IMG/VR virus record: IMGVR_UViG_3300029267_002792
DNA: 64,000 nt
Origin: a virus
Direction: 5' to 3' (one strand)
A program made the position numbers and the translations under genes. Positions 3,870 through 26,092 of this stretch are shown here, in pieces (position 1 is the stretch's first letter; the number at the start of each line of letters is the position of its first letter). Under the pieces are notes generated by a model that saw nothing but the letters and a program-made list of their open reading frames with translations, made no database searches and was not told the DNA's origin.

Positions 3870-4403
3870 TCAGAACAGGTCTTCTGTCGTGCCGATCTGA
3901 GGGGACGTTTCCCGATCTCGGGCGAACGGAGACTTCCGAATGACTTCCAAGGCTGACGAAGAAGTGCTCACGACGTAGACCCGCACGTTGGTGGTGTGCT
4001 CGGAGTGGCTGCCGAGGAAGACCTTCAACCCCAGCGGTCCAAAAGGGCCGGCAATTCCATCCTCGCCGTCCACGAAGAAGACCTTGACCCGTCGCGTGGC
4101 GTCGTACTCGCTCGGATCTGTGACGTAAGGCTTTCCCGTCTTTTTATCCGTCCGGATACGACTTGCGACAGATCTATAAAGCAGCTCCAGGACTTCCAGG
4201 GGCACAATCCAGTCGGACGGGTCCGGAATCCCTAATGTCCCTGCCAGCCGAACTTTGGTGGGTTTGTCACAGCAGGGGCAGCGACCCACTGAGCCTTCGT
4301 AGATCAACCTTTCCTTGAAACGAGCTTTGGACTTCGACATCTCCACTCTCTGACTCAAAGGAGCTTTAGATTCCAGTATCGCCCATCGAACCCGAGCTAC
4401 CAT
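3870..4403 (-). CDS. Hypothetical protein
   Basis: 177-aa ORF abutting the vWA gene. Confidence 0.7.
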   Translation of the reverse strand: MVARVRWAILESKAPLSQRVEMSKSKARFKERLIYEGSVGRCPCCDKPTKVRLAGTLGIPDPSDWIVPLEVLELLYRSVASRIRTDKKTGKPYVTDPSEYDATRRVKVFFVDGEDGIAGPFGPLGLKVFLGSHSEHTTNVRVYVVSTSSSALEVIRKSPFARDRETSPQIGTTEDLF

Positions 4404-6316
4404 CAGCCTCCCCGCAGGTAGCTAACGAAGGCTCCCGTCACGAGCTGCACCAGATCGTGCCCGAATGTCTGATCCTTCATGATGCGCCAATTTCGAGGAG
4501 GCCCGAACATCTTGCCCATCTCTTTCGCGCCTACGTCGCTCCCGATCAGGACTCCCGTCACTCCGATGCCTTTGCGCCTTGCGTTCTGGATGTTCATCCG
4601 AACAAACGACATGAGCGCTCGGGTACCGTACTGCGCACCATCGTTCCGGACGAATATCGGGAATCCGTCGGATATGACAAACAAGTGCTTTCGATCTGTG
4701 CCATCCTCCAGGTCTTTCAAGGCAACGCGAATGGCGGTGTGAAGAGGTGTCGTGCCCCCAACCCTGGAAGTGGCTGACTCGAAGACCTCCTGTCGGGGGC
4801 GAAATCGGGTGATGTCGACCTGCCCATCTTTCAAAGACTGAAATCCCCATACCCGGCTGGTGACGAACGGAAAGTCCAGCGCCCGGGAGATGATTCGACA
4901 AGCTCTCTCAGCCTGAGCGGTCCGGCGCCCTTGCATAGAGGACGATCGGTCTACTAGTACCAGCGTCCGGAAGCCTCGGCCAAAAGAGTCGACAGCGAAG
5001 ACTGGAAGAGGTTCGCCCGTCATACGACGAGTGATGTAGGCGGGGACGTCTAGCCGTGTTCCAGCGTCCTCGAGAGTGTTGATTCGGCGCCCCAGAACAC
5101 GGTGGAACATGGCTCGGAGCCTCTTCACGGTGTTCTCGTCCTCGTCGTTTAGGAGCGAGCTATCAGAACGTGGCCCGGATGGTTCCACGTCGGTGAAGAC
5201 CACCTTGGCATAGCCCTCATGGCGAATGCGATCGTCGTGATTGAACGCGTTCTTAGTCGCATTTCGGGCCTTGTCCACGAGGCGAAGCATCTGGGCCGAG
5301 GAGGCATCGAGAATGTCTTCGAGCTTGCTCGCGTTTTTCACGTTGGCCGTAATGGCAGCCTGAGCCCGCCTGTCGGCAGCTGCTTCCTCTCCGCGTTTTT
5401 TGTACTTCGACTCTCCAACCTCGCTGGAGATGTCAGATGGAGCCTTTCCAAGACGATTGATCGCGTCCTGAAGGGCCTGGGATCGCTCTTTTAGCCCGGC
5501 ATCAACCTCGGGAGGCTCCCAGGTTTCGTCAGGATGGTCCTCAGACGGCTCTTGCGGGTTGCTGCCCTCTCCGGCCTGCTGCTCGTCCTCGTCCCCTGAC
5601 GCCCCATCAGAGCCGCTCCCGAGCTGCGGGGCAGGTCCGGGCGGAGGGTCCTCCCCTCGCGATTCTCGGATAATTTCCGACACCAGCTGTACTACGAGCC
5701 ACTTCGCCGCTACCAAGCACCCGAAGTAGTCCCGGAAGCGTACCTTCCTCAGGGCTTCCTCCATGTAGGGCACGAAGCGGTCAAGCTTCCCGGGGGGTAT
5801 CGGGTTGCCGCTCGCAACGCAGATGAACAGGGACAGAAAGTCTTGGTGAGCCAGGTTCAGGTGTGCGGCCGACTCCTCCCGTTTCATACGGCGCATGATG
5901 GCCCCGGAGCCACGGTAGAGCAGGCCCCAGAGGGAGATGACGCGCTCGTCATCAAGGACGCCAACGATACCTTCCAAACCCGCCCTCAGCATGCGCTCGT
6001 TGATGGTGAGGTGAGCCTTTTTGGCGACCTGCCCGATCTTCCTGGAGTACTCCTCGATGAACTTCTGCTTCGCTAGGAAATCCGACTGGAACAGGATGTG
6101 GGAGATCTCGTGCTCACAGTACTGGTACGCCCGCGGGTGTTGGAAGGGCACTTCAATCAGGTACCCGTTGGTTCTCGCCACCCCGTCCTGGGAGTTCTTG
6201 AGCCAGAGACGTCGCTTCAGGATGCCAGAGAACACGTCTACGGTTTTGTAGCACATGGCTTTGGGGGACGAGTCCACCTCAACATTGATGAGTGCATCCA
6301 CGTCGATGGTCGACAT
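4403..6316 (-). CDS. vWA-domain protein (CobT/NorD/CbbO-like partner of MoxR ATPase)
   Basis: Start MSTIDVDAL after AGGAGG; HEISH motif; acidic linker; MIDAS DRSSSM, GGTTPL, VISDG. Confidence 0.9.
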   Translation of the reverse strand: MSTIDVDALINVEVDSSPKAMCYKTVDVFSGILKRRLWLKNSQDGVARTNGYLIEVPFQHPRAYQYCEHEISHILFQSDFLAKQKFIEEYSRKIGQVAKKAHLTINERMLRAGLEGIVGVLDDERVISLWGLLYRGSGAIMRRMKREESAAHLNLAHQDFLSLFICVASGNPIPPGKLDRFVPYMEEALRKVRFRDYFGCLVAAKWLVVQLVSEIIRESRGEDPPPGPAPQLGSGSDGASGDEDEQQAGEGSNPQEPSEDHPDETWEPPEVDAGLKERSQALQDAINRLGKAPSDISSEVGESKYKKRGEEAAADRRAQAAITANVKNASKLEDILDASSAQMLRLVDKARNATKNAFNHDDRIRHEGYAKVVFTDVEPSGPRSDSSLLNDEDENTVKRLRAMFHRVLGRRINTLEDAGTRLDVPAYITRRMTGEPLPVFAVDSFGRGFRTLVLVDRSSSMQGRRTAQAERACRIISRALDFPFVTSRVWGFQSLKDGQVDITRFRPRQEVFESATSRVGGTTPLHTAIRVALKDLEDGTDRKHLFVISDGFPIFVRNDGAQYGTRALMSFVRMNIQNARRKGIGVTGVLIGSDVGAKEMGKMFGPPRNWRIMKDQTFGHDLVQLVTGAFVSYLRGG

Positions 6317-7157: not shown

Positions 7158-7739
7158 TCAGCCTCCTTTCCTGGACCCCGCAGCCTTTGAACGCTTGGAC
7201 ACGTTTCGGGCCTTGCGCGGCGCGTTCTCCGTCACGGGACCTCCAACGATCTCCTCCAGGGCGTCAAGGAGGTCGGGGTCCTCTTTCACGCGGAGCGCCC
7301 ATACGATCTTCTTCGCGCTTTCCACGTCCACCTTCGGGAGCTTGCCCAGGTCGACGAGGTTCTGGACCTTGCTGGCGTCCATCACGACCTTCGTCACCTG
7401 GGTGAAGGCCTGGTCTGGAGCTAGGTCGTGGTCCTCTAGGAGAGCACGCAGCTTCTCCTCGTCAGGCAGAGAAGCCTTCCGCTGTTCCCGGACGACTGTG
7501 GACCCCTCCACGCGCAGCTTCTGGCCCCCGTTGTCGGTCGTGCGACCGAACTCGTTGGCGCGGGCTAGGAGGACTGTCCGGAGTTCCTTCACGCGCTTGT
7601 CGATTTGGTCCTGGGTGTACTTCAGGATGATCCAGGCCTCGACCAGGGATGAGATGTTGGCCCGCGTCGCGTCTCCCACGAGGAGAGGTCCGCGCAGCAA
7701 GGCGCCCACGTACATTTCCACCGCTTCTCTGAATGTCAT
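7158..7739 (-). CDS. Hypothetical protein
   Basis: 193-aa ORF coupled to the AAA gene. Confidence 0.75.
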   Translation of the reverse strand: MTFREAVEMYVGALLRGPLLVGDATRANISSLVEAWIILKYTQDQIDKRVKELRTVLLARANEFGRTTDNGGQKLRVEGSTVVREQRKASLPDEEKLRALLEDHDLAPDQAFTQVTKVVMDASKVQNLVDLGKLPKVDVESAKKIVWALRVKEDPDLLDALEEIVGGPVTENAPRKARNVSKRSKAAGSRKGG

Positions 7740-7812
7740 CGGTTCTTACTCCTTCTCGCAGCTAAGTGCCAGATCTTCTATCTACCAGACATACCATATA
7801 GGCAGGGGATTG

Positions 7813-8079
7813 TCAATCAGAATCGTCAATCTCTACGATGAGCTGCCGACCGTCGACCATACCTATGGCCGAAAAGATCTGTCTGATGGCTGTGATGGTC
7901 CGGCCGCGCTTGCCAATCACCAGCCCTCTGTCGGCAGGGCGCACGTACAGGGAAAGAATGGTTTTATCGCCGCGTTCGGTCTCATTCACGCGTACGTGTA
8001 CTGGCGAAGTGACTAGCGCGCGAGCCACTTCAGCTAGAAGGGCACGATCCTCAAGTGGGTGTACCGGTCGAGCCTCCAC
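7813..8079 (-). CDS. khpA: KH-domain RNA-binding protein (KhpA/UPF0109-like)
   Basis: ALVTSP..VRV...LYVRPADRGLVIGKRGRTITAIRQI (GxxG loop), family-typical size. Confidence 0.85.
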   Translation of the reverse strand: MEARPVHPLEDRALLAEVARALVTSPVHVRVNETERGDKTILSLYVRPADRGLVIGKRGRTITAIRQIFSAIGMVDGRQLIVEIDDSD

Positions 8080-20286: not shown

Positions 20287-20366
20287 GCACGCGCGGGGAT
20301 GGACCGGAGTACACGATGGACCAGAGATTTGCAGAGCAGGTTCCCCCGCACGCGTGGGGATGGTCT
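20287..20366 (+). CRISPR. Mini-array 2: 5'-truncated repeat, one 33-bp spacer, degenerate repeat
   Basis: GCACGCGCGGGGATGGACC (20287-305); spacer GGAGTACACGATGGACCAGAGATTTGCAGAGCA; GGTTCCCCCGCACGCGTGGGGATGGTCT (20339-366). Confidence 0.85.
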
Positions 20367-20690
20367 TCCACGGAAGAGCGATCTCCCTCCCCGGGCACGG
20401 TGAACGGAGTACTGATAAGTACGTTCCAAGGAGCGGCGAAAAAGTGTCTGGGAGGCGCATTTTTTACTTGACTCTAGGGTTTGCGCTTGACACTCTGAAC
20501 TCAGCGCACGGGAGTTAGGTTTTAGCTCAGAGCACCCGATAGAGCAGACAATGACACGGCAAGAACAGCGCAGGTTGAAGCATGCTAACGGAGGGTATCG
20601 ACCGTCATGGTTGTGTATACCCTCCTGCGGCGCGAATACCGTCGTGACTTTTGCCGCCGATATTACGCTCCAGGAGGGTAGCCCAGGGTA

Positions 20691-20759
20691 GCGGCTTTCG
20701 CACAAACGCAACATCCGCGAAAGCCGCCCCGGGAAGCCGAGGCGGCTTTTGACGTTTTT
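20691..20759 (+). terminator. Alternative terminator/antiterminator hairpins upstream of the tRNA cluster
   Basis: GCGGCTTTCGC/GCGAAAGCCGC competes with AAAGCCGCC/GGCGGCTTT, followed by TGACGTTTTT. Confidence 0.5.
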
Positions 20760-20794
20760 GGGATTGAAGGTTTGGAGTTTGAAGTAGGACAACT

Positions 20795-20867
20795 GGGTCG
20801 CTAGCTCAATTGGCAGAGCAGCAGGCTTTTACCCTGAAGGTTCCCGGATCGTTGCCGGGGCGGCCCA
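20795..20867 (+). tRNA. trnK: tRNA-Lys(TTT), atypical T-loop ATCGTTG
   Basis: GGGTCGC/GCGGCCC; loop CTTTTAC. Confidence 0.8.
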
Positions 20868-20977
20868 CCGATCGAGAACGAGACTCGCTAGGAGTCTCTC
20901 GGCGACGGCCGCTCGCTCTGTGACAACTGAGCATCTTCGACCCTGGGACTCTACCCAGGTCCCAGGGTCACTATTAT

Positions 20978-21049
20978 GGGTCTCTGGCGTAACGGCAGCG
21001 TCGCGGCCTCTTAAGCCGTCAGGTCCGGGTTCAAATCCCGGGGGACCCA
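20978..21049 (+). tRNA. trnK: tRNA-Lys(CTT)
   Basis: GGGTCTC/GGGACCC; loop CTCTTAA. Confidence 0.9.
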
Positions 21050-21055
21050 CTGCAG

Positions 21056-21128
21056 GGGTCGGAAGTTCAGGAGGTAGAACGGCGGCCTGTTAAGCCGAGA
21101 GTTGTGGGTTCAAATCCCACCCGACCCG
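21056..21128 (+). tRNA. trnN: tRNA-Asn(GTT)
   Basis: GGGTCGG/CCGACCC; loop CTGTTAA. Confidence 0.92.
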
Positions 21129-21132
21129 CGAT

Positions 21133-21205
21133 TGGGGTGTAGTTCAGTTGGCAGAACGGCTGACTCTGGCTCAGCATGTCGGGGGTTCGAGTCCTCCCAC
21201 CCCAA
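21133..21205 (+). tRNA. trnQ: tRNA-Gln(CTG)
   Basis: TGGGGTG/CACCCCA; loop CTCTGGC. Confidence 0.92.
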
Positions 21206-21206
21206 C

Positions 21207-21335
21207 CGATCCGAATGCTCGATGGGGAATACATCGTCTGATAAACGATCGAAGTAGGTTCGATTCCTACCAGCCCGAACTGCCGGGCTGCCAGGTTCGG
21301 GAGAAAAAACTTCTCCGTCATCCCTTGTCGGATCG
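21207..21335 (+). ncRNA. Y-RNA-like 1 (Ile-GAT anticodon arm plus T arm)
   Basis: CGATCCGAATGCT...GGGGAATACAT...CCCTTGTCGGATCG; ATCGT-CTGATAA-ACGAT; GTAGG-TTCGATT-CCTAC. Confidence 0.85.
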
Positions 21336-21338
21336 ATT

Positions 21339-21411
21339 ACCGGAGTAGCTCAACGGAAGAGCGGCGGACTTTGACTCCGCGTCAGCGTAGGTTCGACCCC
21401 TACCTCCGGTG
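21339..21411 (+). tRNA. trnQ: tRNA-Gln(TTG)
   Basis: ACCGGAG/CTCCGGT; loop CTTTGAC. Confidence 0.92.
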
Positions 21412-21532
21412 CTAACCCGAAACCGAGCTTCAGAGCAACGGGCGGGGGCAGCGACCTTCGGGATGCTGCCACGTCTTCGAGAGACGCACACAGCGCCTCG
21501 TGCTACGGATACGCCCTGGCCGGAGACGTACT

Positions 21533-21604
21533 GGGTGACGCGCAGGGTACGCGGGCTGGTCTCCAAAACCGGCTGTCTGCTGAGTTCGATTCTCAGGTCG
21601 CCCG
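21533..21604 (+). tRNA. trnW: tRNA-Trp(CCA), atypical D arm
   Basis: GGGTGAC/GTCGCCC; loop CTCCAAA. Confidence 0.82.
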
Positions 21605-21606
21605 CT

Positions 21607-21723
21607 AGGCCGAATGCTTTGGTGGGAGTACATAGTCTAATTGGTAAAGACATTTGCCTTCTAAGCAAAGATTCCAGGTTCGAGTCCTGGTGTACACAAA
21701 CTCTCATCGTCACTTGTCGGCCT
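21607..21723 (+). ncRNA. Y-RNA-like 2 enclosing a full tRNA-Arg(TCT) cloverleaf (21626-21698)
   Basis: AGGCCGAATGCT...CACTTGTCGGCCT; inside: GTCT/AGAC D arm, TTTGC-CTTCTAA-GCAAA, CCAGG-TTCGAGT-CCTGG. Confidence 0.85.
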
Positions 21724-21728
21724 TACTT

Positions 21729-21802
21729 GGGGCTACGGGCCAGGTGGAGTGGCCGCCTCCCTGTCACGGAGGAGATCGCGAGTTCGACTCTCGTTAGCCC
21801 CG
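21729..21802 (+). tRNA. trnD: tRNA-Asp(GTC)
   Basis: GGGGCTA/TAGCCCC; loop CTGTCAC. Confidence 0.92.
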
Positions 21803-21971
21803 CAAGAGATCAACCCAGTACCGCCTTCCGGTCATTCGGAGGGTTAGCCCCGAACTACGTGGGTCGGGGACGATACGTTCATTCTCCTTGCGAGGGGACG
21901 TAGAGGCGAAAGGTTCGAGATCTTAGATGCTCCCTCGCTCGTCGGACAATCCAGGCGAGCGTTGGAGCGCT

Positions 21972-22043
21972 GGGGAGGTAGTTCAATCGGTAGAACATGG
22001 GATTGAAGATCCCAGAACGTCGGTTCAATTCCGGCCCTTCCCG
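21972..22043 (+). tRNA. trnF: tRNA-Phe(GAA)
   Basis: GGGGAGG/CCTTCCC; loop TTGAAGA. Confidence 0.92.
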
Positions 22044-22045
22044 CT

Positions 22046-22123
22046 GGACCGAATGCTGAAGGGAGTACATTGTCGCCTAAACCCCGACTCAAAGCCCTGT
22101 CTCTCTTTGACCCTTGTCGGTCC
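22046..22123 (+). ncRNA. Y-RNA-like 3 (short)
   Basis: GGACCGAATGCT..GGGAGTACAT...CCCTTGTCGGTCC; payload GTCG-CCTAAACCC-CGAC. Confidence 0.82.
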
Positions 22124-22126
22124 TGC

Positions 22127-22200
22127 CCGCGTGTGGCCCAACCTGGTCGGGCGCCAGCTTTGGGAGCTGGAAGATGCAGGTTCAAATCCTGTCGCGCGGA
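22127..22200 (+). tRNA. trnP: tRNA-Pro(TGG)
   Basis: CCGCGTG/CGCGCGG; loop TTTGGGA. Confidence 0.92.
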
Positions 22201-22208
22201 CTAAGTTT

Positions 22209-22290
22209 CCCCCGATAGACACCTATGGATGGTGGACCGGCTGTAACCCGGTTGCCGACGGCCAGGGAGGTTCGATTCCTTCTCGGGGGA
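22209..22290 (+). tRNA. trnY: tRNA-Tyr(GTA), apparent C1-G72
   Basis: CCCCCGA/TCGGGGG; loop CTGTAAC; long variable arm. Confidence 0.85.
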
Positions 22291-22297
22291 CCGGAAC

Positions 22298-22369
22298 GGT
22301 GGTCATGGTGTAGCGGAAGCACGCCAGGTTGTGGTCCTGGAAGCGCGGGTTCGATTCCCGTTGACTACC
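22298..22369 (+). tRNA. trnH: tRNA-His(GTG) with G-1/C73
   Basis: G-GTGGTCA/TGACTAC-C; loop TTGTGGT. Confidence 0.92.
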
Positions 22370-22375
22370 CCGCAC

Positions 22376-22448
22376 GCCCCTGAGGTCCAACTGGAAGGAC
22401 ATCACCCTCCTAAGGTGAAGATTGCGGGTTCGAGCCCCGCCGGGGGCT
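22376..22448 (+). tRNA. trnR: tRNA-Arg(CCT)
   Basis: GCCCCTG/CGGGGGC; loop CTCCTAA. Confidence 0.92.
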
Positions 22449-22493
22449 CTGGATGTGCTTGTTCTGGAAGAGCGTCGTCTGTAGACTCTGAAC

Positions 22494-24641
22494 ATGGCAA
22501 CAAAGAGCCCGACACAGCACCACTCCTACTGGGGAGTCGTCGCCAGCGCGAGTCAGCTCCCGAACGTGTCTGGAGCTACAATCCAGGACGCAGCCGTTGA
22601 GGCCGGGGATACCGCCTACGTTACTGGTTCCGGTACGTATCAGTGCGACGACGCGACAGTTGGCGCAGCTGTCTGGTCATCCGTAGGCTCCGCCGTTGTA
22701 GGGATAGGGACCATAGCTGCACCAGCTGAGAAGGTCGTTTGGGCCTGGAACGGGGTAGACACCTCGCAGCTTGCAACTCCCCTGGATATCGGAGCCCCGA
22801 CAGGGACGCTCACCGTCGCCCCCTTCCCCACGGGGTACGATACCCCGACTCGGAATCGGTTGCTGTATTCTCACACGGGCACGGGTGCGAACCGGATCTA
22901 TCTCATCGACGACCTCCCGGACCCGATGCCGAATGTCTTCATCATCGAGATTGTCCTTGGGCCGCGAGGGGCCACACTGGGATCGAATACGACGGCATTC
23001 CTGTGGATCGCAGGGCAGGACACCACACACTTCCTGACTTTCAATCGCCACACGGACAACGTCACACCGATTGTCCAGGCCTACAACAACATCTCCCCCA
23101 CCGTCGGTGGGTGCTATCGGTTCCTGGGCGGGGCGATCTTGTCGAACGCGGACGAGGGACAGCTCATCCGCCTGCGCGTCGAAGTCCGCGACCCAGATAC
23201 CTCGAACGACCCCGGGATCAGCATCGTTCCCCTCCATCCCAGCGAGCCGGACATTTCCCCTCACCGGTTCTCCGCGGACGCCATGACACCATCAGGCGGG
23301 GCAACGTGTCCCGCCGCTGGTTGGCACTCCTCCTGGAGATCGGGTGGCACGATCAAGAACATCGGAATCGCCTTCGAGGAGCGAGGTAATCCAGGCGTTG
23401 GCTACGTCTCCGATCTCAGAATCCTGGAGCCGATGCAGCAGATCACTACGACGGGCGGGGGCGGGACCTCGGTGGAGTACGACTGGGCCACAAACTACCT
23501 CTACACCCAGCAGAGCCCGGTCGTGGAGAAGACGATCGGGCACGGATACATGGACGGGGCGGACGTTGGCGGATCGATCTATTTCCGAGCCGTCCTCAAC
23601 CCCCAGTTCTCGGTCGCTGGTTCTGCTCAGGTCAAGCTTTACGACGTTGGGCCGGCGCTGGGACCTCCGGCCGTGCCGACGCTGATCGCCACGCTCACAG
23701 TCAGTTCGAGCGGGTTGGCGTACGTACAGGAGGCGCTCTCAATCGCCGGCTCTCCAGGTCTCGGACAGATCGCGGATAGCGCCCGAATGTACGAAGTCAC
23801 GGTCACGCAGACCTCGCAAGTCGGAGATACGGTCCTGGTAGGCTCGGCCGGGGTCTCTGACAGGGCGAACTTCAGAATCGAGCCTCCGGCAGTTGTCCCC
23901 GCCCAAACCGAACTGTGGGCGTGGGACAAGACCAGCGTGACTCAGCTCGGCGATGGTGTCGGAGGTCCTACGGCTTCGGACATCCCGACCACGGGCTCCC
24001 TCTCCGTAGGAGCTTTTCCGGCAGGCCTGGACTGCGCGCAAAAACCTCGACTTGAGTATGCGCACACCAACGCTGGCGCGCTCGCGTTTTTCGAGATTCG
24101 GGACTTGCCGGACGACTTCCCCGATGACTTCGTGCTCGAATTCAAGTTGGGTCCCCGAGAGAGCAGTCCCGGAGGCCTCACAACCAATCCGCAGGTTGTA
24201 TTGGCGTATCAGGACATCACACACTGGTTTTCGGTGTACCGTGGTGGCGGTCTGACCAACGCTCACCTCAAGTGTGCCAACAACAACAACGGGAAGACAG
24301 CCTACACCTACAAGACGACGATCACGTCCCTCCTGAACAATCAGGAGGGCAGCCACTACCGCATCGCGTGCAGCTACAACGACCCGACGCCGACATCCGA
24401 CCCGGGGTGTGAGTGGGTTCTCCAAATCCCAACGTACACCGGTCGTAGGCGAGCAAACTCAACTGGGTGGAACGCAGTTGGAGGGGCAACTCCTCCCTCA
24501 ACGTCTTGGGATGGCGGATGGAGGACGGGCGGTACGATCAAACGCATTGGAATTATGTTCGAGGAGATGGGAACTAGCCCGAACCCGGGGTTGGGCTGGA
24601 TCTCTGACCTTCGCATCCTGTCTTGGGCGCCGCTGGGATAA
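22494..24641 (+). CDS. Beta-rich putative virion/receptor-binding protein with a duplicated ~250-aa domain
   Basis: Two copies of WAW..T.QL...L.V..FP.G.D...RL.Y.HT...LGPR...W...WR.GGTIK.IGI.FEE.G..G.G..SDLRIL. Confidence 0.8.
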   Translation: MATKSPTQHHSYWGVVASASQLPNVSGATIQDAAVEAGDTAYVTGSGTYQCDDATVGAAVWSSVGSAVVGIGTIAAPAEKVVWAWNGVDTSQLATPLDIGAPTGTLTVAPFPTGYDTPTRNRLLYSHTGTGANRIYLIDDLPDPMPNVFIIEIVLGPRGATLGSNTTAFLWIAGQDTTHFLTFNRHTDNVTPIVQAYNNISPTVGGCYRFLGGAILSNADEGQLIRLRVEVRDPDTSNDPGISIVPLHPSEPDISPHRFSADAMTPSGGATCPAAGWHSSWRSGGTIKNIGIAFEERGNPGVGYVSDLRILEPMQQITTTGGGGTSVEYDWATNYLYTQQSPVVEKTIGHGYMDGADVGGSIYFRAVLNPQFSVAGSAQVKLYDVGPALGPPAVPTLIATLTVSSSGLAYVQEALSIAGSPGLGQIADSARMYEVTVTQTSQVGDTVLVGSAGVSDRANFRIEPPAVVPAQTELWAWDKTSVTQLGDGVGGPTASDIPTTGSLSVGAFPAGLDCAQKPRLEYAHTNAGALAFFEIRDLPDDFPDDFVLEFKLGPRESSPGGLTTNPQVVLAYQDITHWFSVYRGGGLTNAHLKCANNNNGKTAYTYKTTITSLLNNQEGSHYRIACSYNDPTPTSDPGCEWVLQIPTYTGRRRANSTGWNAVGGATPPSTSWDGGWRTGGTIKRIGIMFEEMGTSPNPGLGWISDLRILSWAPLG

Positions 24642-24765
24642 GGCGAAAGGAACGAGTCGCTCGGCGTCTATTTTTACCAACTCACTGCAAGTGCGGGGAA
24701 GGGTACGTCCCAGATCTCCGAATTTTGGAACCAGTGGATTGATCAGTCTGCCAATTCATGAATAC

Positions 24766-24837
24766 CTCCTGGTCGTCTAATGGTAAAGACACCGGTCTGA
24801 TAAATCGGAAATGGTGGTTCGATTCCACTCCAGGGGA
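24766..24837 (+). tRNA. trnI: tRNA-Ile(GAT)
   Basis: CTCCTGG/CCAGGGG; loop CTGATAA. Confidence 0.92.
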
Positions 24838-24841
24838 CCGC

Positions 24842-24913
24842 GGTCCTGTAGCTCGAAGGTACGAGCATCCGGCTCATAACCGGACGGTGTGGGTTCGATT
24901 CTCACCAGGACTA
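24842..24913 (+). tRNA. trnM: tRNA-CAT (elongator Met or Ile2)
   Basis: GGTCCTG/CAGGACT; loop CTCATAA. Confidence 0.88.
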
Positions 24914-24918
24914 CTAGC

Positions 24919-24990
24919 GGGCGAGTGGCCAAACGGGAAGGCGCCTCCTTGACGCGGAGGAGATCGTGGGTTCGACTCCCTCCTCGCCCA
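24919..24990 (+). tRNA. trnV: tRNA-Val(GAC)
   Basis: GGGCGAG/CTCGCCC; loop TTGACGC. Confidence 0.9.
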
Positions 24991-24991
24991 C

Positions 24992-25157
24992 CGAAGGTTT
25001 GGGTTGGGACCTGCTAAGGACAGGATACGTTGAAGATGAGAGCTGGGGTTCTCACCGTCGCCGCCCGATGCGCCCAACATCACCGATTCCCCAGGGTTGG
25101 TTTTTGGCGGGCGCAGGCCCGCGATGGCGTAGCAAAGCCTGTTAGCCCAAATCTTCG
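24992..25157 (+). ncRNA. Orphan structured RNA (~166 nt)
   Basis: 14-bp terminal helix CGAAGGTTTGGGTT/AGCCCAAATCTTCG; exactly fills the gap between two tRNAs. Confidence 0.6.
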
Positions 25158-25160
25158 TTA

Positions 25161-25233
25161 GGGGTACTAGCTCATCCGGGAGAGCGCTACGCTGGCAGCG
25201 TAGAGGTGCGGGGTTCAAGTCCCCGGTACTCCA
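25161..25233 (+). tRNA. trnA: tRNA-Ala(GGC)
   Basis: G3-U70; loop CTGGCAG. Confidence 0.93.
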
Positions 25234-25235
25234 CC

Positions 25236-25309
25236 GGGCCAAATGCTGGACGGGATTACATTGTCTTATTTGGGACTAAAACGTCATCTCGTCAATCCCT
25301 TGTTGGCCC
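25236..25309 (+). ncRNA. Y-RNA-like 4 (short)
   Basis: GGGCCAAATGCT..GGGATTACAT...CCCTTGTTGGCCC (compensatory G-C to A-U pair). Confidence 0.82.
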
Positions 25310-25318
25310 TCCATTTTT

Positions 25319-25391
25319 GGGCCTGTAGCTCAGCTGGGAGAGCGCCTGCTTCGCATGCAGGAGGTCAGCAGTTCGATTCTGCTCAGGTCCA
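25319..25391 (+). tRNA. trnA: tRNA-Ala(CGC)
   Basis: G3-U70; loop TTCGCAT. Confidence 0.93.
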
Positions 25392-25420
25392 CTGCGACGA
25401 ATGATTGTGTCGTCGCTCCC

Positions 25421-25493
25421 GGGTCCGTGGTGAAATTGGGATCACACCTGGCTTGCACCCAGGAGTTGAGGGTTCGATTCCCTCCGGTATCCA
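25421..25493 (+). tRNA. trnA: tRNA-Ala(TGC), bulged acceptor stem
   Basis: GGGTCCG/CGGTATCC; loop CTTGCAC. Confidence 0.85.
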
Positions 25494-25497
25494 CTCT

Positions 25498-25573
25498 GCC
25501 CCGAAAGAATCAATGGCGATTCACCTCCTTGGTATGGAGGAGACGGCGGGTTCGATCCCCGCTCGGGGCTCCA
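25498..25573 (+). tRNA. trnT: tRNA-Thr(GGT), CCA encoded
   Basis: GCCCCGA/TCGGGGC; loop TTGGTAT. Confidence 0.9.
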
Positions 25574-25574
25574 A

Positions 25575-25647
25575 GCCGGTCTAGCTCACCAGGAAGAGCG
25601 TCAGCTTCCCAAGCTGAAGGCAACGGGTTCGAGTCCCGTGACCGGCT
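25575..25647 (+). tRNA. trnG: tRNA-Gly(CCC)
   Basis: GCCGGTC/GACCGGC; loop TTCCCAA. Confidence 0.93.
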
Positions 25648-25648
25648 C

Positions 25649-25769
25649 CGGCCGAATGCTCGATGGGACTACATAGGTTCAACTCCTTTATCCGCCGCCA
25701 AGGCCCCGCACGGGGCCGCTCTATGGCGGATGCCCTTCGGGGGCATGTCTCATCATCCCTTGTCGGCCG
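25649..25769 (+). ncRNA. Y-RNA-like 5 (mini T arm plus GC hairpins)
   Basis: CGGCCGAATGCT..GGGACTACAT...CCCTTGTCGGCCG; AGG-TTCAACT-CCT; GCCC-TTCG-GGGC. Confidence 0.85.
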
Positions 25770-25772
25770 TTT

Positions 25773-25844
25773 GCCGGAGAGATCCTACGGTTGGGTGTCA
25801 GCCTTCCAAGCTGATTGCAGCGGGTTCGATTCCCGTCTCCGGCT
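25773..25844 (+). tRNA. trnG: tRNA-Gly(TCC)
   Basis: GCCGGAG/CTCCGGC; loop CTTCCAA. Confidence 0.9.
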
Positions 25845-25846
25845 CC

Positions 25847-25998
25847 GGACCTCGAATGCTTAGGTGGGATTACATAGCAATTCGAGTCTAATCGATAGAT
25901 AGGAGGTTCGATTCCTCCCCGGCCTGCCGGTCCTCCAGGACCACAATTCTAGGCCGGAAGCTAAATGGGAATAGTCTCACCCCCACTTGTCGAGGTCC
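25847..25998 (+). ncRNA. Y-RNA-like 6 (YrlA-type order: T arm, closed acceptor, D-like loop), directly upstream of rsr
   Basis: GGACCTCGAATGCT...CACTTGTCGAGGTCC; GGAGG-TTCGATT-CCTCC; CCGGCCT/AGGCCGG. Confidence 0.85.
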
Positions 25999-26092
25999 TC
26001 TCTTGACTATCTCAGATGAGGTCGCTTCTCGGTATTCGGAGGAGATTGGCCTGGCCATGGAGCGCCACACTATTGGTGGCAGGGAGGTCATC

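What the first reader, a model, noticed from the sequence alone, without database searches (positions are those of the whole stretch)
21607..21723. A complete tRNA-Arg(UCU) cloverleaf nested inside a Y RNA
Seen: the Y motif GAGUACA doubles as the 5' acceptor strand (GUACA/UGUAC), followed by a normal D arm, anticodon arm CUUCUAA, T arm and 3' acceptor strand. There is no CCA, and the RNA continues into the 3' Ro stem. A separate ordinary tRNA-Arg(UCU) exists at 28318, so this copy is not needed for decoding. Inference: either a non-permuted tRNA mimic locked by Ro, or a Ro-gated tRNA precursor released by RNase P/Z. It may also be an evolutionary intermediate showing how Y RNAs capture tRNA modules.
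Basis: partly seen in the sequence, partly recalled or inferred. Interest (0 to 1): 0.8.

Follow-up and report, generated by a model that had tools for sequence, protein, structure and literature searches.

The report
tRNA-shaped Y RNA of a phage
A large phage carries, beside its Ro60 gene, a small RNA whose Ro60-binding stem encloses a complete tRNA cloverleaf. Related phages keep the fold but not the anticodon, so it is most likely a Ro60-tethered tRNA mimic and not a working arginine tRNA.

Summary
At 21607-21723 a Y-RNA stem encloses a cloverleaf (21626-21698) that ARAGORN and Rfam call tRNA-Arg(UCU), at 64.6 bits. The stem has the Ro motif GCCGAAUG, an outer helix and an inner helix.

The window is a phage tRNA array with 42 tRNAs, a Ro60/Rsr gene and seven Y-RNA paralogues that share the same stem.

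Ten related metagenomic phages keep this element at the same place, between tRNA-Trp and tRNA-Asp. All six helices covary: 92-95% of cells pair, against about 40% in slid controls.

Four results argue against a decoding tRNA:
- The anticodon is not conserved: UCU in 4 lineages, AUC in 2, and CUC, UAG, GAA and one degenerate loop in 1 each.
- tRNA positions 1-3 pair with the Y 3' strand in 42/42 cells. They pair with positions 70-72 in only 20/42.
- Position 20 is U. All standard Arg tRNAs checked have A20.
- Every relative where that region was recovered also has an ordinary tRNA-Arg(UCU).

Best reading (0.62): a Ro60-bound Y RNA whose effector domain is a non-permuted tRNA mimic with an anticodon arm. 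This is a new variant of YrlA/Yrn1-type Y RNAs. A Ro-gated tRNA precursor (0.22) is not excluded.

Earlier notes of this scan describe the same design on other phage DNA (e1-5301967, e1-5767037).

The parts
21607..21613 (+). Outer (terminal) Y stem, 5' strand AGGCCGA. The Ro motif GNCGAAN0-1G is GCCGAAUG at 21609-21616.
   Evidence: Pairs with 21717-21723 in the fold. All 7 pairs show changes on both sides across 14 family members. The motif is defined in Chen 2014, PMC4201824.
21614..21619 (+). 5' side of the internal loop (AUGCUU), matching the AUGCu of the YrlA consensus.
   Evidence: Compared with the Rfam YrlA consensus as aligned to paralogues Y6 and Y7. Conserved in all seven paralogues.
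21620..21628 (+). Inner Y stem, 5' strand UGGUGGGAG. Its last three bases are tRNA positions 1-3.
   Evidence: Pairs with 21701-21709. Pair probability is about 1.0. 6 of 9 pairs have changes on both sides. The Y register pairs in 42/42 cells, the tRNA register in 20/42.
21626..21698 (+). Complete cloverleaf called tRNA-Arg(UCU): acceptor-like UACA/UGUA, D arm 21635-21651, anticodon arm 21653-21669 (UCU at 21660-21662), T arm 21674-21690.
   Evidence: ARAGORN. Rfam tRNA 64.6 bits. D, anticodon and T stems covary. U8, A14, G18G19, the T loop and A15:U48 are conserved. GC is 0.41, the lowest of the 42 tRNAs.
21695..21700 (+). 3' bulge (CACAAA) between the acceptor-like helix and the inner Y stem. 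In this copy it can also pair with G1 and G3 as C72 and C70.
   Evidence: Bulge length varies from 0 to 6 nt among relatives and its sequence is not conserved.
21701..21709 (+). Inner Y stem, 3' strand CUCUCAUCG.
21710..21723 (+). 3' internal loop UCACUUG (the AcUuG of the YrlA consensus) and the outer stem 3' strand UCGGCCU.
21533..21605 (+). Upstream tRNA-Trp(CCA). It ends 1 nt before the Y RNA.
   Evidence: ARAGORN. The same abutment (0-1 nt) is found in all relatives.
21729..21803 (+). Downstream tRNA-Asp(GUC). It starts 5 nt after the Y RNA, so RNase P cleavage here would set the Y RNA's 3' end (inferred).
   Evidence: ARAGORN and Rfam. The 2-5 nt spacing is conserved in relatives.
26057..27802 (+). 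Ro60/Rsr orthologue, the presumed protein partner. The longest ORF starts at 26003; homologues support a start at 26057.
   Evidence: Pfam vWA_Ro60. PHROG 850 RNA-binding protein. PDB 2NVO Rsr at 7e-20 and Thermus phage phiLo Ro60 9KOP at 4e-10. Homologues are named 60 kDa SS-A/Ro.
28318..28390 (+). Ordinary tRNA-Arg(UCU) with A20. It is the likely decoder of AGA.
   Evidence: Rfam 63.1 bits. A20 is present here and in the standard tRNA-Arg(UCU) of eight relatives.

Best explanation
The element at 21607-21723 is a Y RNA, the small RNA partner of the phage's own Ro60/Rsr protein. Its effector domain is a complete, non-permuted tRNA-like cloverleaf.

How it is probably made (inferred). It is transcribed within the polycistronic tRNA array. 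Processing of its neighbours cuts it out: 3' maturation of tRNA-Trp one base upstream, and RNase P cleavage of tRNA-Asp five bases downstream.

How it folds (shown by covariation). Its 5' and 3' ends form a two-part stem. An outer helix carries the GNCGAAN0-1G Ro motif. An inner helix continues, across a short 3' bulge, into a 4-bp acceptor-like helix. D, anticodon and T arms sit on this in the normal tRNA order and keep the bases that build the tRNA L-shape.

What follows (inferred). tRNA positions 1-3 are held in the inner Y helix. There is therefore no free acceptor end, the RNase P site is buried, and the RNA is not charged or used in decoding.

What it probably does (inferred from the family). 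By analogy with YrlA, Yrn1 and the Thermus phage Yrl RNAs, Ro60 binds the stem. The tRNA-shaped domain then acts as a nuclease-resistant tether or decoy that brings Ro60 together with a tRNA-recognising partner such as PNPase, a tRNA-processing enzyme or a tRNA-repair enzyme.
For: - Y stem. The 5' motif is shared with six paralogues, with 0 matches expected by chance. Both strands match the Rfam YrlA consensus as seen on paralogues Y6 and Y7. A Ro60 gene lies 4.3 kb downstream on the same strand.
- Conservation. Ten orthologues sit between tRNA-Trp and tRNA-Asp in related phage contigs: L095, L098 (identical to L041 and L066), L099, L101, L102, L103, L105, L106, L074 and the window.
- Covariation, sequence-only alignment A2: 92.1% of cells pair against 33-45% when slid, and 17 of 34 pairs change on both sides.
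- Covariation, model-fitted alignment A4 (14 distinct sequences): 95.3% against 34-43%, and 26 of 34 pairs. All six helices are supported.
- Register. tRNA positions 1-3 pair with the Y 3' strand in 42/42 cells. They pair with positions 70-72 in 20/42.
- Energetics. The Y register is 5.3 kcal/mol better than the tRNA register, and P(G1-C72) = 0.0.
- Anticodon. The loops are CUUCUAA in 4 lineages, CUAUCAA in 2, and CUCUCAA, UUUAGAC, CCGAAAA and a 5-nt loop in 1 each. The flanking tRNAs keep their anticodons in every genome.
- ArgRS identity. Position 20 is U in the whole family. It is A in all four standard Arg tRNAs of the window and in the standard tRNA-Arg(UCU) of eight relatives.
- Redundancy. 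An ordinary tRNA-Arg(UCU) is present in the window and in all eight relatives where that part of the array was recovered.
- L-shape bases. U8, A14, G18G19, the T loop and A15:U48 are kept.
- Literature. Y RNAs with tRNA-like domains bind Rsr (PMC4201824). A phage Ro60 binds phage Yrl RNAs and forms a complex with host PNPase (PMC12135203).
Against: - No expression, end-mapping or Ro-binding data exist for this RNA.
- The window's copy is as good a tRNA as the real ones by covariance score, 64.6 bits.
- The four UCU lineages share an identical 7-nt anticodon loop although their stems differ. They are also the most tRNA-like: 64.6, 59.6, 55.7 and 50.4 bits, against 41.7 and below 29 for non-UCU copies. 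This pattern would also fit retained tRNA function in those lineages.
- M. smegmatis YrlA is cut by RNase P and gets CCA in vivo, so being inside a Y RNA does not by itself prevent processing.
- Nearest-neighbour energies ignore tRNA tertiary contacts and proteins.
- Alignment A4 is fitted to the model, which inflates its pair counts.
- The A20 argument rests on the identity rules of studied bacteria. The host here is unknown.
Confidence: 0.62

Rival explanations
1. Ro-gated or Y-flanked tRNA precursor. The cloverleaf is a working second tRNA-Arg(UCU). The Y-like leader and trailer pair and, with Ro60, delay or regulate cleavage by RNase P and RNase Z. Once released, the tRNA receives CCA, is charged and decodes AGA.
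For: - Rfam tRNA score of 64.6 bits, with a canonical loop CUUCUAA, T loop and D loop.
- UCU and the whole anticodon loop are identical in four lineages from three sub-clades of the Ro tree, although their stems differ.
- UCU copies score much higher as tRNAs than non-UCU copies.
- Most true tRNAs of the array also lack an encoded CCA.
- M. smegmatis YrlA is processed by RNase P and gains CCA (PMC4201824).
Against: - The acceptor top (pairs 1-72 to 3-70) is not conserved even among UCU copies: 1-2 of 3 pairs form. The competing Y pairing is always formed and covaries.
- U20 replaces the A20 found in every standard Arg tRNA examined.
- An ordinary tRNA-Arg(UCU) is present in every genome where that region was recovered.
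- Six of ten orthologues carry other triplets or a degenerate loop in the same body, including AUC, which is not a normal bacterial anticodon.
- In L102 the acceptor and Y helices form one uninterrupted helix with no bulge.
- The predicted probability of G1-C72 is 0.0.
Confidence: 0.22
2. Relic without function of its own. A tRNA gene recombined into a Y-RNA gene, or a Y stem arose around a tRNA. The chimera persists only because it lies in a tightly packed array.
For: - The cloverleaf has the lowest GC of the 42 tRNAs (0.41 against a median of 0.63) and no close paralogue (at most 66% identity), as a drifting copy might.
- Some orthologues are degenerate. L098 and L099 score below the Rfam cut-off, and L074 has a 5-nt loop.
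Against: - Compensatory changes keep all six helices in ten or more lineages whose Ro proteins are only 57-75% identical to the window's.
- The bases for tertiary contacts are conserved.
- The position and the spacing to the neighbouring tRNAs are conserved.
- The same design occurs in unrelated contigs and in a bacterial rsr-rtcB locus.
Confidence: 0.04
3. Processing scaffold. The Y-like stem and cloverleaf serve mainly as a structured spacer that guides RNase P, RNase Z or RNase E in cutting the long tRNA-array transcript. Ro60 is not involved.
For: All seven Y modules sit 0-5 nt from flanking tRNAs. No terminator or promoter was found between them.
Against: - The stem carries the specific Ro-binding motif and the YrlA-type loop sequences, not just any helix.
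- The modules travel with a Ro60 gene in every relative recovered.
- Many tRNA junctions in the same arrays have no such spacer.
Confidence: 0.07

Closest known systems
YrlA (Rfam RF02553), the tRNA-like Y RNA of Salmonella, Mycobacterium and mycobacteriophages (Chen et al. 2014, PMC4201824; Wang et al. 2018, bioRxiv 10.1101/312249)
   Same: - A terminal stem formed by the 5' and 3' ends, with the GNCGAAN0-1G motif.
- The AUGCu and AcUuG loop sequences.
- Encoded on the same strand as, and near, a Ro60/Rsr gene.
- An effector domain that keeps tRNA D-arm and T-arm features.
- Six paralogues in this window give sub-threshold YrlA hits or share the stem.
   Different: - YrlA is circularly permuted: its order is T arm, closed acceptor hairpin, D arm. 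It has no anticodon loop, and the Ro stem stands where the anticodon stem would be.
- Here the order is the normal D, anticodon, T. A canonical 7-nt anticodon loop is present, and the Ro stem continues from the acceptor stem.
- The Rfam YrlA model gives no hit on this element even at E up to 10.
Deinococcus radiodurans Yrn1
   Same: As described in PMC4201824, it is drawn with its D-like and T arms flanking an 'anticodon arm', so it has the same unpermuted orientation relative to the Ro stem. It tethers Rsr to PNPase.
   Different: - Its tRNA likeness is weak: no full D arm, a 6-nt loop, no variable region, and no dihydrouridine detected.
- The element here is a full cloverleaf that tRNA finders accept.
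- No sequence comparison with Yrn1 was made here.
Mycobacterium smegmatis YrlA after processing
   Same: [quoted passage not shown] This is the precedent for tRNA enzymes acting on a Y RNA.
   Different: - There the cut opens a closed acceptor loop and yields two halves.
- Here a cut at position 1 would free the 5' Y strand and could release a tRNA-sized piece.
- The 7-bp register is not conserved in this family.
Yrl1 and Yrl2 of Thermus phage phiLo with phage Ro60 (NAR 2025, PMC12135203)
   Same: Y-like RNAs encoded by a phage, upstream of a phage Ro60, found through the CGAA motif. They were shown to bind the phage Ro60 and to form a complex with host PNPase. The window's Ro60 matches that protein's structure entries at 4e-10.
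   Different: No tRNA-like cloverleaf was reported for Yrl1 or Yrl2 in the passages read, and they do not lie in a tRNA array.
Ordinary phage tRNA genes (Rfam RF00005)
   Same: Cloverleaf, conserved bases and score are those of a tRNA. It lies in a tRNA array.
   Different: - Both ends are locked in a conserved Ro-type stem.
- The anticodon varies between orthologues.
- The A20 identity base is missing.
- GC content is far below that of the array's real tRNAs.

Membership tests
tRNA (Rfam RF00005) | Cloverleaf scoring above the curated cut-off | tested here: met
   64.6 bits against a cut-off of 29 at 21626-21698. ARAGORN calls tRNA-Arg(tct).
Functional tRNA-Arg | A 7-bp acceptor stem with free ends, kept by selection | tested here: not met
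   Positions 1-3 pair with 70-72 in 20/42 cells across 14 family members. They pair with the Y 3' strand in 42/42. The window has an A2.A71 mismatch, and P(G1-C72) = 0.0.
Functional tRNA-Arg | Anticodon conserved among orthologues | tested here: not met
   UCU occurs in 4 of 10 syntenic orthologues. The others carry AUC (2 lineages), CUC, UAG, GAA and a 5-nt loop. Neighbouring tRNAs keep their anticodons.
Functional tRNA-Arg | Bacterial ArgRS identity elements (A20, C35, U/G36), taken from established knowledge of E. coli and T. thermophilus ArgRS | tested here: not met
   C35 and U36 are present, but position 20 is U. A20 is present in all four standard Arg tRNAs of the window and in the standard tRNA-Arg(UCU) of eight relatives.
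Functional tRNA-Arg | Processing to 73-76 nt, CCA addition and aminoacylation | not testable with these tools
   No read data could be obtained.
Y RNA (Ro60 partner RNA) | [quoted passage not shown] | tested here: met
   The fold forms it. In the outer helix 7 of 7 pairs, and in the inner helix 6 of 9, have changes on both sides. It is also supported on the sequence-only alignment.
Y RNA (Ro60 partner RNA) | Conserved GNCGAAN0-1G motif in the 5' strand (Chen 2014) | tested here: met
   GCCGAAUG at 21609-21616. CCGAAUGC is invariant in nine orthologues. It is shared with six paralogues.
Y RNA (Ro60 partner RNA) | Encoded near a Ro60/Rsr gene on the same strand | tested here: met
   The Ro60 orthologue is at 26057-27802 on the + strand. 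The same linkage holds in every relative recovered through its Ro60 protein.
Y RNA (Ro60 partner RNA) | Physically bound and stabilised by Ro60 | not testable with these tools
   Inferred only.
YrlA (Rfam RF02553) | Score at or above the curated cut-off (69 bits) | tested here: not met
   No YrlA match on 21607-21723 even at E up to 10. Paralogues Y7, Y6, Y4 and Y5 score 42.7, 30.5, 28.2 and 26.4 bits.
YrlA (Rfam RF02553) | Permuted tRNA-like domain: T arm, closed acceptor hairpin, D arm, and no anticodon loop | tested here: not met
   The order here is D, anticodon, T, with a 7-nt anticodon loop and no closed acceptor hairpin.
YrlA (Rfam RF02553) | tRNA-type tertiary bases in the D and T arms | tested here: met
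   U8 in 13/14, A14 in 14/14, G18G19 in 14/14, T loop UUCRANU in 14/14, A15:U48 in 10/14. The pattern used in the scans forced the T loop for some members, but not for those recovered through Ro60.

The most novel reading that the evidence does not exclude
The Ro60-held cloverleaf is a bait or decoy for enzymes that read anticodon loops: host anticodon nucleases used as anti-phage defence, or tRNA-modifying or tRNA-repair enzymes. Ro60, perhaps with PNPase, would hold a complete but unchargeable anticodon arm in place to soak up or sense such enzymes. The triplet would then turn over between related phages (UCU, AUC, CUC, UAG, GAA, with AUC in two separate sub-clades) as targets change. This extends the published suggestion that YrlA might competitively inhibit an anticodon nuclease (PMC7790460) to a Y RNA that, unlike YrlA, really has an anticodon loop.
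Probability: 0.15. Interest if true: 0.85.

Novelty: new variant of a known kind. Interest (0 to 1): 0.62.

Why it matters
1. Annotation. tRNA finders call this Y-RNA domain a tRNA gene. This inflates phage tRNA counts and creates apparent duplicates and odd anticodons, such as Asp(AUC) or a class-I-bodied Leu(CAA), in related contigs.

2. Origin of Y RNAs. Published work describes bacterial tRNA-like Y RNAs as permuted and lacking an anticodon loop, and speculates that they arose from tRNAs. This family gives a graded series from a full, unpermuted cloverleaf to degenerate forms. They sit next to permuted paralogues in the same array, so that origin can now be studied by comparison.

3. Mechanism. 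A complete anticodon arm tethered to Ro60, inside a phage tRNA array, points to a link between Ro60 particles and tRNA-targeting enzymes in phage-host conflict. A related design also lies in a bacterial rsr-rtcB operon. The link can be tested with standard RNA biochemistry.

Tried and rejected
- Megablast of 21300-22500 against the phage collection found no match.
- The search for related loci with the Ro60 protein in viral contigs found no match. Relatives were reached through DNA patterns and through Ro60 homologues.
- No whole genome is held for this window.
- A stem-only covariance model built from short Y RNAs was dropped, because MAFFT misaligned their 3' strands. Stem membership rests instead on motifs, the YrlA consensus and covariation.
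- The promoter and terminator scan of 20300-26100 was uninformative: 0 promoter-like sites, and terminator-like sites at the chance level.
- Four further Ro60 homologues gave no extra orthologue. Two had no DNA available, and L120 and L121 hold no such element.
- Two reviews on bacterial Y RNAs are not held in the library.
- The idea that the cloverleaf is a recent copy of another tRNA of the array was rejected: the best identity is 66%, which is background level.
- 'No CCA' was rejected as a distinguishing feature, because most tRNAs of the array lack it.

Full report
WHAT IS THERE

The window is part of a large phage-like genome with GC 0.60. It carries 42 tRNA genes on the + strand between 20795 and 32050.

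Inside this array lies an ORF at 26003-27802, whose likely true start is 26057. It is an orthologue of Ro60/Rsr:
- Pfam vWA_Ro60 and PHROG 850.
- PDB matches to D. radiodurans Rsr 2NVO at 7e-20 and to Thermus phage phiLo Ro60 at 4e-10.
- Thousands of homologues, many named 60 kDa SS-A/Ro.
- The best match among isolated phages is Myxococcus phage Mx1, at 38% identity.

Seven elements between the tRNAs share the motif CGAAUGCU-N2-8-GGGAnUACAU on the 5' side and UCUCA...CUUGUCGG on the 3' side. The pattern gives 7 matches with 0.00 expected from shuffles. Four of them give sub-threshold hits to Rfam YrlA, and both of their strands align with the YrlA consensus. They are Y-RNA paralogues.

THE FINDING ITSELF

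At 21607-21723 the same two-part stem encloses 21626-21698. ARAGORN calls this tRNA-Arg(UCU), and Rfam tRNA scores it 64.6 bits, which is within the range of the true tRNAs.
- GAGUACA is both the Y motif and the 5' acceptor strand.
- The anticodon loop is CUUCUAA.
- No CCA is encoded.
- The 3' flank continues into the Ro-type stem.
- An ordinary tRNA-Arg(UCU) lies at 28318-28390.

Two qualifications apply.
- The lack of CCA is shared by most tRNAs of the array.
- The acceptor stem has an A2.A71 mismatch, and its first bases compete with the inner Y helix. In the full transcript the nearest-neighbour model puts G1-G3 in the Y helix with probability of about 1.0. The Y register has -34.6 kcal/mol and the tRNA register -29.3.

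The cloverleaf also has the lowest GC of all 42 tRNAs (0.41, median 0.63) and no close paralogue.

RELATIVES

DNA-pattern scans of viral, metagenome and genome collections, and contigs found through Ro60 homologues of 57-71% identity, gave a clade of phage contigs with the same array order.

In all of them an orthologue of the element sits between tRNA-Trp and tRNA-Asp(GUC). It starts 0-1 nt after the first and ends 2-5 nt before the second. The orthologues are in L095, L098 (identical to L041 and L066), L099, L101, L102, L103, L105, L106 and L074.

This tight abutment suggests that tRNA processing of the neighbours sets the Y RNA's ends. That step is inferred.

STRUCTURE IS CONSERVED

On a sequence-only MAFFT alignment of nine orthologues (A2):
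- 92.1% of cells form standard pairs in the proposed structure, against 33-45% when the partners are slid.
- 17 of 34 pairs show changes on both sides.

On an alignment of 15 hits (14 distinct) to a covariance model built from A2 (R1, A4):
- 95.3% of cells pair, against 34-43% when slid.
- 26 of 34 pairs change on both sides.
- All six helices are supported: outer Y, inner Y, acceptor-like, D, anticodon and T.

A4 is fitted to the model, so it leans towards the structure. A2 is not fitted.

The bases that build the tRNA L-shape are kept: U8, A14, G18G19, the T loop and A15:U48.

DECODING FEATURES ARE NOT CONSERVED

1. Anticodon. The loops are CUUCUAA in four lineages (window, L095, L103, L106), CUAUCAA in two (L098, L102), and CUCUCAA (L099), UUUAGAC (L101), CCGAAAA (L105) and a 5-nt loop (L074) in one each. 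The flanking tRNAs keep their anticodons throughout.

2. Acceptor top. Positions 1-3 pair with positions 70-72 in only 20/42 cells, which is near chance. They pair with the Y 3' strand in 42/42, with covariation at the third pair. The bulge between the two helices is 0-6 nt long and not conserved. In L102 the helix runs without interruption.

3. ArgRS identity. Position 20 is U in the family. All four standard Arg tRNAs of the window and the standard tRNA-Arg(UCU) of eight relatives have A20, the main ArgRS identity base in studied bacteria. That rule is established knowledge and was not tested on this unknown host.

4. Redundancy. The window and all eight relatives where that part of the array was recovered hold an ordinary tRNA-Arg(UCU) after tRNA-Cys.

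WHAT KEEPS THE RIVAL ALIVE

On a Ro60 protein tree, UCU occurs in three separate sub-clades, so it is probably ancestral. The four UCU copies share an identical 7-nt loop although their stems differ.

They are also the most tRNA-like by Rfam score: 64.6, 59.6, 55.7 and 50.4 bits. L101 scores 41.7, and L098 and L099 fall below the cut-off. L102, L105 and L074 were not scored with Rfam.

This fits either a common ancestor that was a true tRNA-Arg(UCU) caught in a Y stem and decaying at different rates, or retained tRNA function in some lineages. AUC appearing in two separate sub-clades is unexplained.

BROADER FAMILY

The same unpermuted design (Y stem, then D, anticodon and T arms) occurs in other, unrelated contigs: L090, L060, L072, L050, L026 and L086. 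In L086 the cloverleaf has its own acceptor stem.

A related form lies in a Phycisphaerae genome bin, between an rsr gene and rtcB, among several Y RNAs.

Earlier notes of this scan describe the same idea on other phage DNA. Those are unchecked AI notes and are not used here as evidence.

COMPARISON WITH WHAT IS KNOWN

Published bacterial and phage YrlA RNAs are described as circularly permuted tRNA mimics with a closed acceptor hairpin and no anticodon loop (PMC4201824; bioRxiv 10.1101/312249).

D. radiodurans Yrn1 is drawn in the unpermuted orientation, but with weak tRNA likeness.

Phage Ro60 has been shown to bind phage Yrl RNAs and to form a complex with host PNPase (PMC12135203).

I found no description of a Y RNA holding a complete, unpermuted cloverleaf with a canonical anticodon loop in the papers I could search. 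Two reviews were not available.

The element meets the general Y-RNA criteria that can be tested from sequence. It fails the Rfam YrlA model and the YrlA architecture. It meets the tRNA covariance model but fails the comparative tests for a working tRNA-Arg.

VERDICT

Best explanation (0.62): a Ro60-tethered, non-permuted tRNA-mimic Y RNA that is cut out of the array by processing of the neighbouring tRNAs. It is a new variant of a known kind.

A Ro-gated tRNA precursor remains possible (0.22).

Shown: the sequence features, the synteny, the covariation, and the lack of conservation of the decoding features.

Inferred: Ro60 binding, the processing route, the absence of charging, and the role of the tRNA-shaped domain.

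Noticed in passing
window 21208-21336, 22046-22123, 25649-25769, 25849-25999, 27906-28046, 28053-28189 (and a weak YrlB-like hit at 25233-25314): Six further Y-RNA paralogues share the stem of the finding but carry different payloads. Y3 has a short hairpin only. Y4 has a T-arm-like hairpin plus further hairpins. Y1, Y6 and Y7 are permuted, and Y1 and Y7 keep an anticodon-like arm (GAU and GUC loops) ahead of the T arm, which published YrlA RNAs lack.
   Followed up: partly
window 21413-21532 (also L098:7456-7591, L099:7009-7146, L101:7831-7967, L106:4131-4266): The spacer of about 120-138 nt between tRNA-Gln(UUG) and tRNA-Trp is more conserved than the neighbouring tRNAs, with an almost invariant GAUACGCCCUGGCCGGAG. 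RNAalifold predicts hairpins in which 10 of 27 pairs keep pairing through changes on both sides. It may be another small RNA of the array.
   Followed up: partly
window 21533-21605: ARAGORN calls a tRNA-Trp(CCA) here, but the Rfam tRNA model does not report it at its cut-off in this window (the best hit is tRNA-Sec at 27.5 bits). Its orthologues in L101, L103 and L106 score 52-62 bits as tRNA. The window's copy has an unusual D arm.
   Followed up: no
window 22494-24641 (+): A 715-aa ORF inside the tRNA/Y-RNA array has no Pfam or PHROG match. Relatives have homing-endonuclease (HNH) genes or other small ORFs at comparable places in the array.
   Followed up: partly
L098:8179-8307, L095:564-692 (-), L106:6011-6138, L103:2583-2712: Relatives hold a second Y-stem-enclosed, tRNA-like element near tRNA-His. 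ARAGORN reports it as a tRNA of undetermined type with a two-base anticodon (aa), and Rfam tRNA scores it about 46 bits. It is absent from the window.
   Followed up: partly
L111:6600-7170 (-), with rsr at 7202-7999 and rtcB at 4333-5829: A Phycisphaerae genome bin has a classical rsr / Y RNAs / rtcB locus with at least four tandem Y RNAs. One of them has D, anticodon (CUUACAA) and T arms in the unpermuted tRNA order, followed by an extra hairpin.
   Followed up: partly
L103:1077-1441: One related phage contig carries a tmRNA gene (Rfam 109 bits) inside the same tRNA array. The window has none.
   Followed up: no
L001:268-391 (Myxococcus phage Mx1, OR576727.2): The isolated phage Mx1 has an unannotated YrlA-like (permuted) Y RNA between two tRNA-Pro genes, about 11.6 kb upstream of its annotated TROVE-domain gene. 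It could serve as a culturable system for phage Ro60/Y RNA work.
   Followed up: partly
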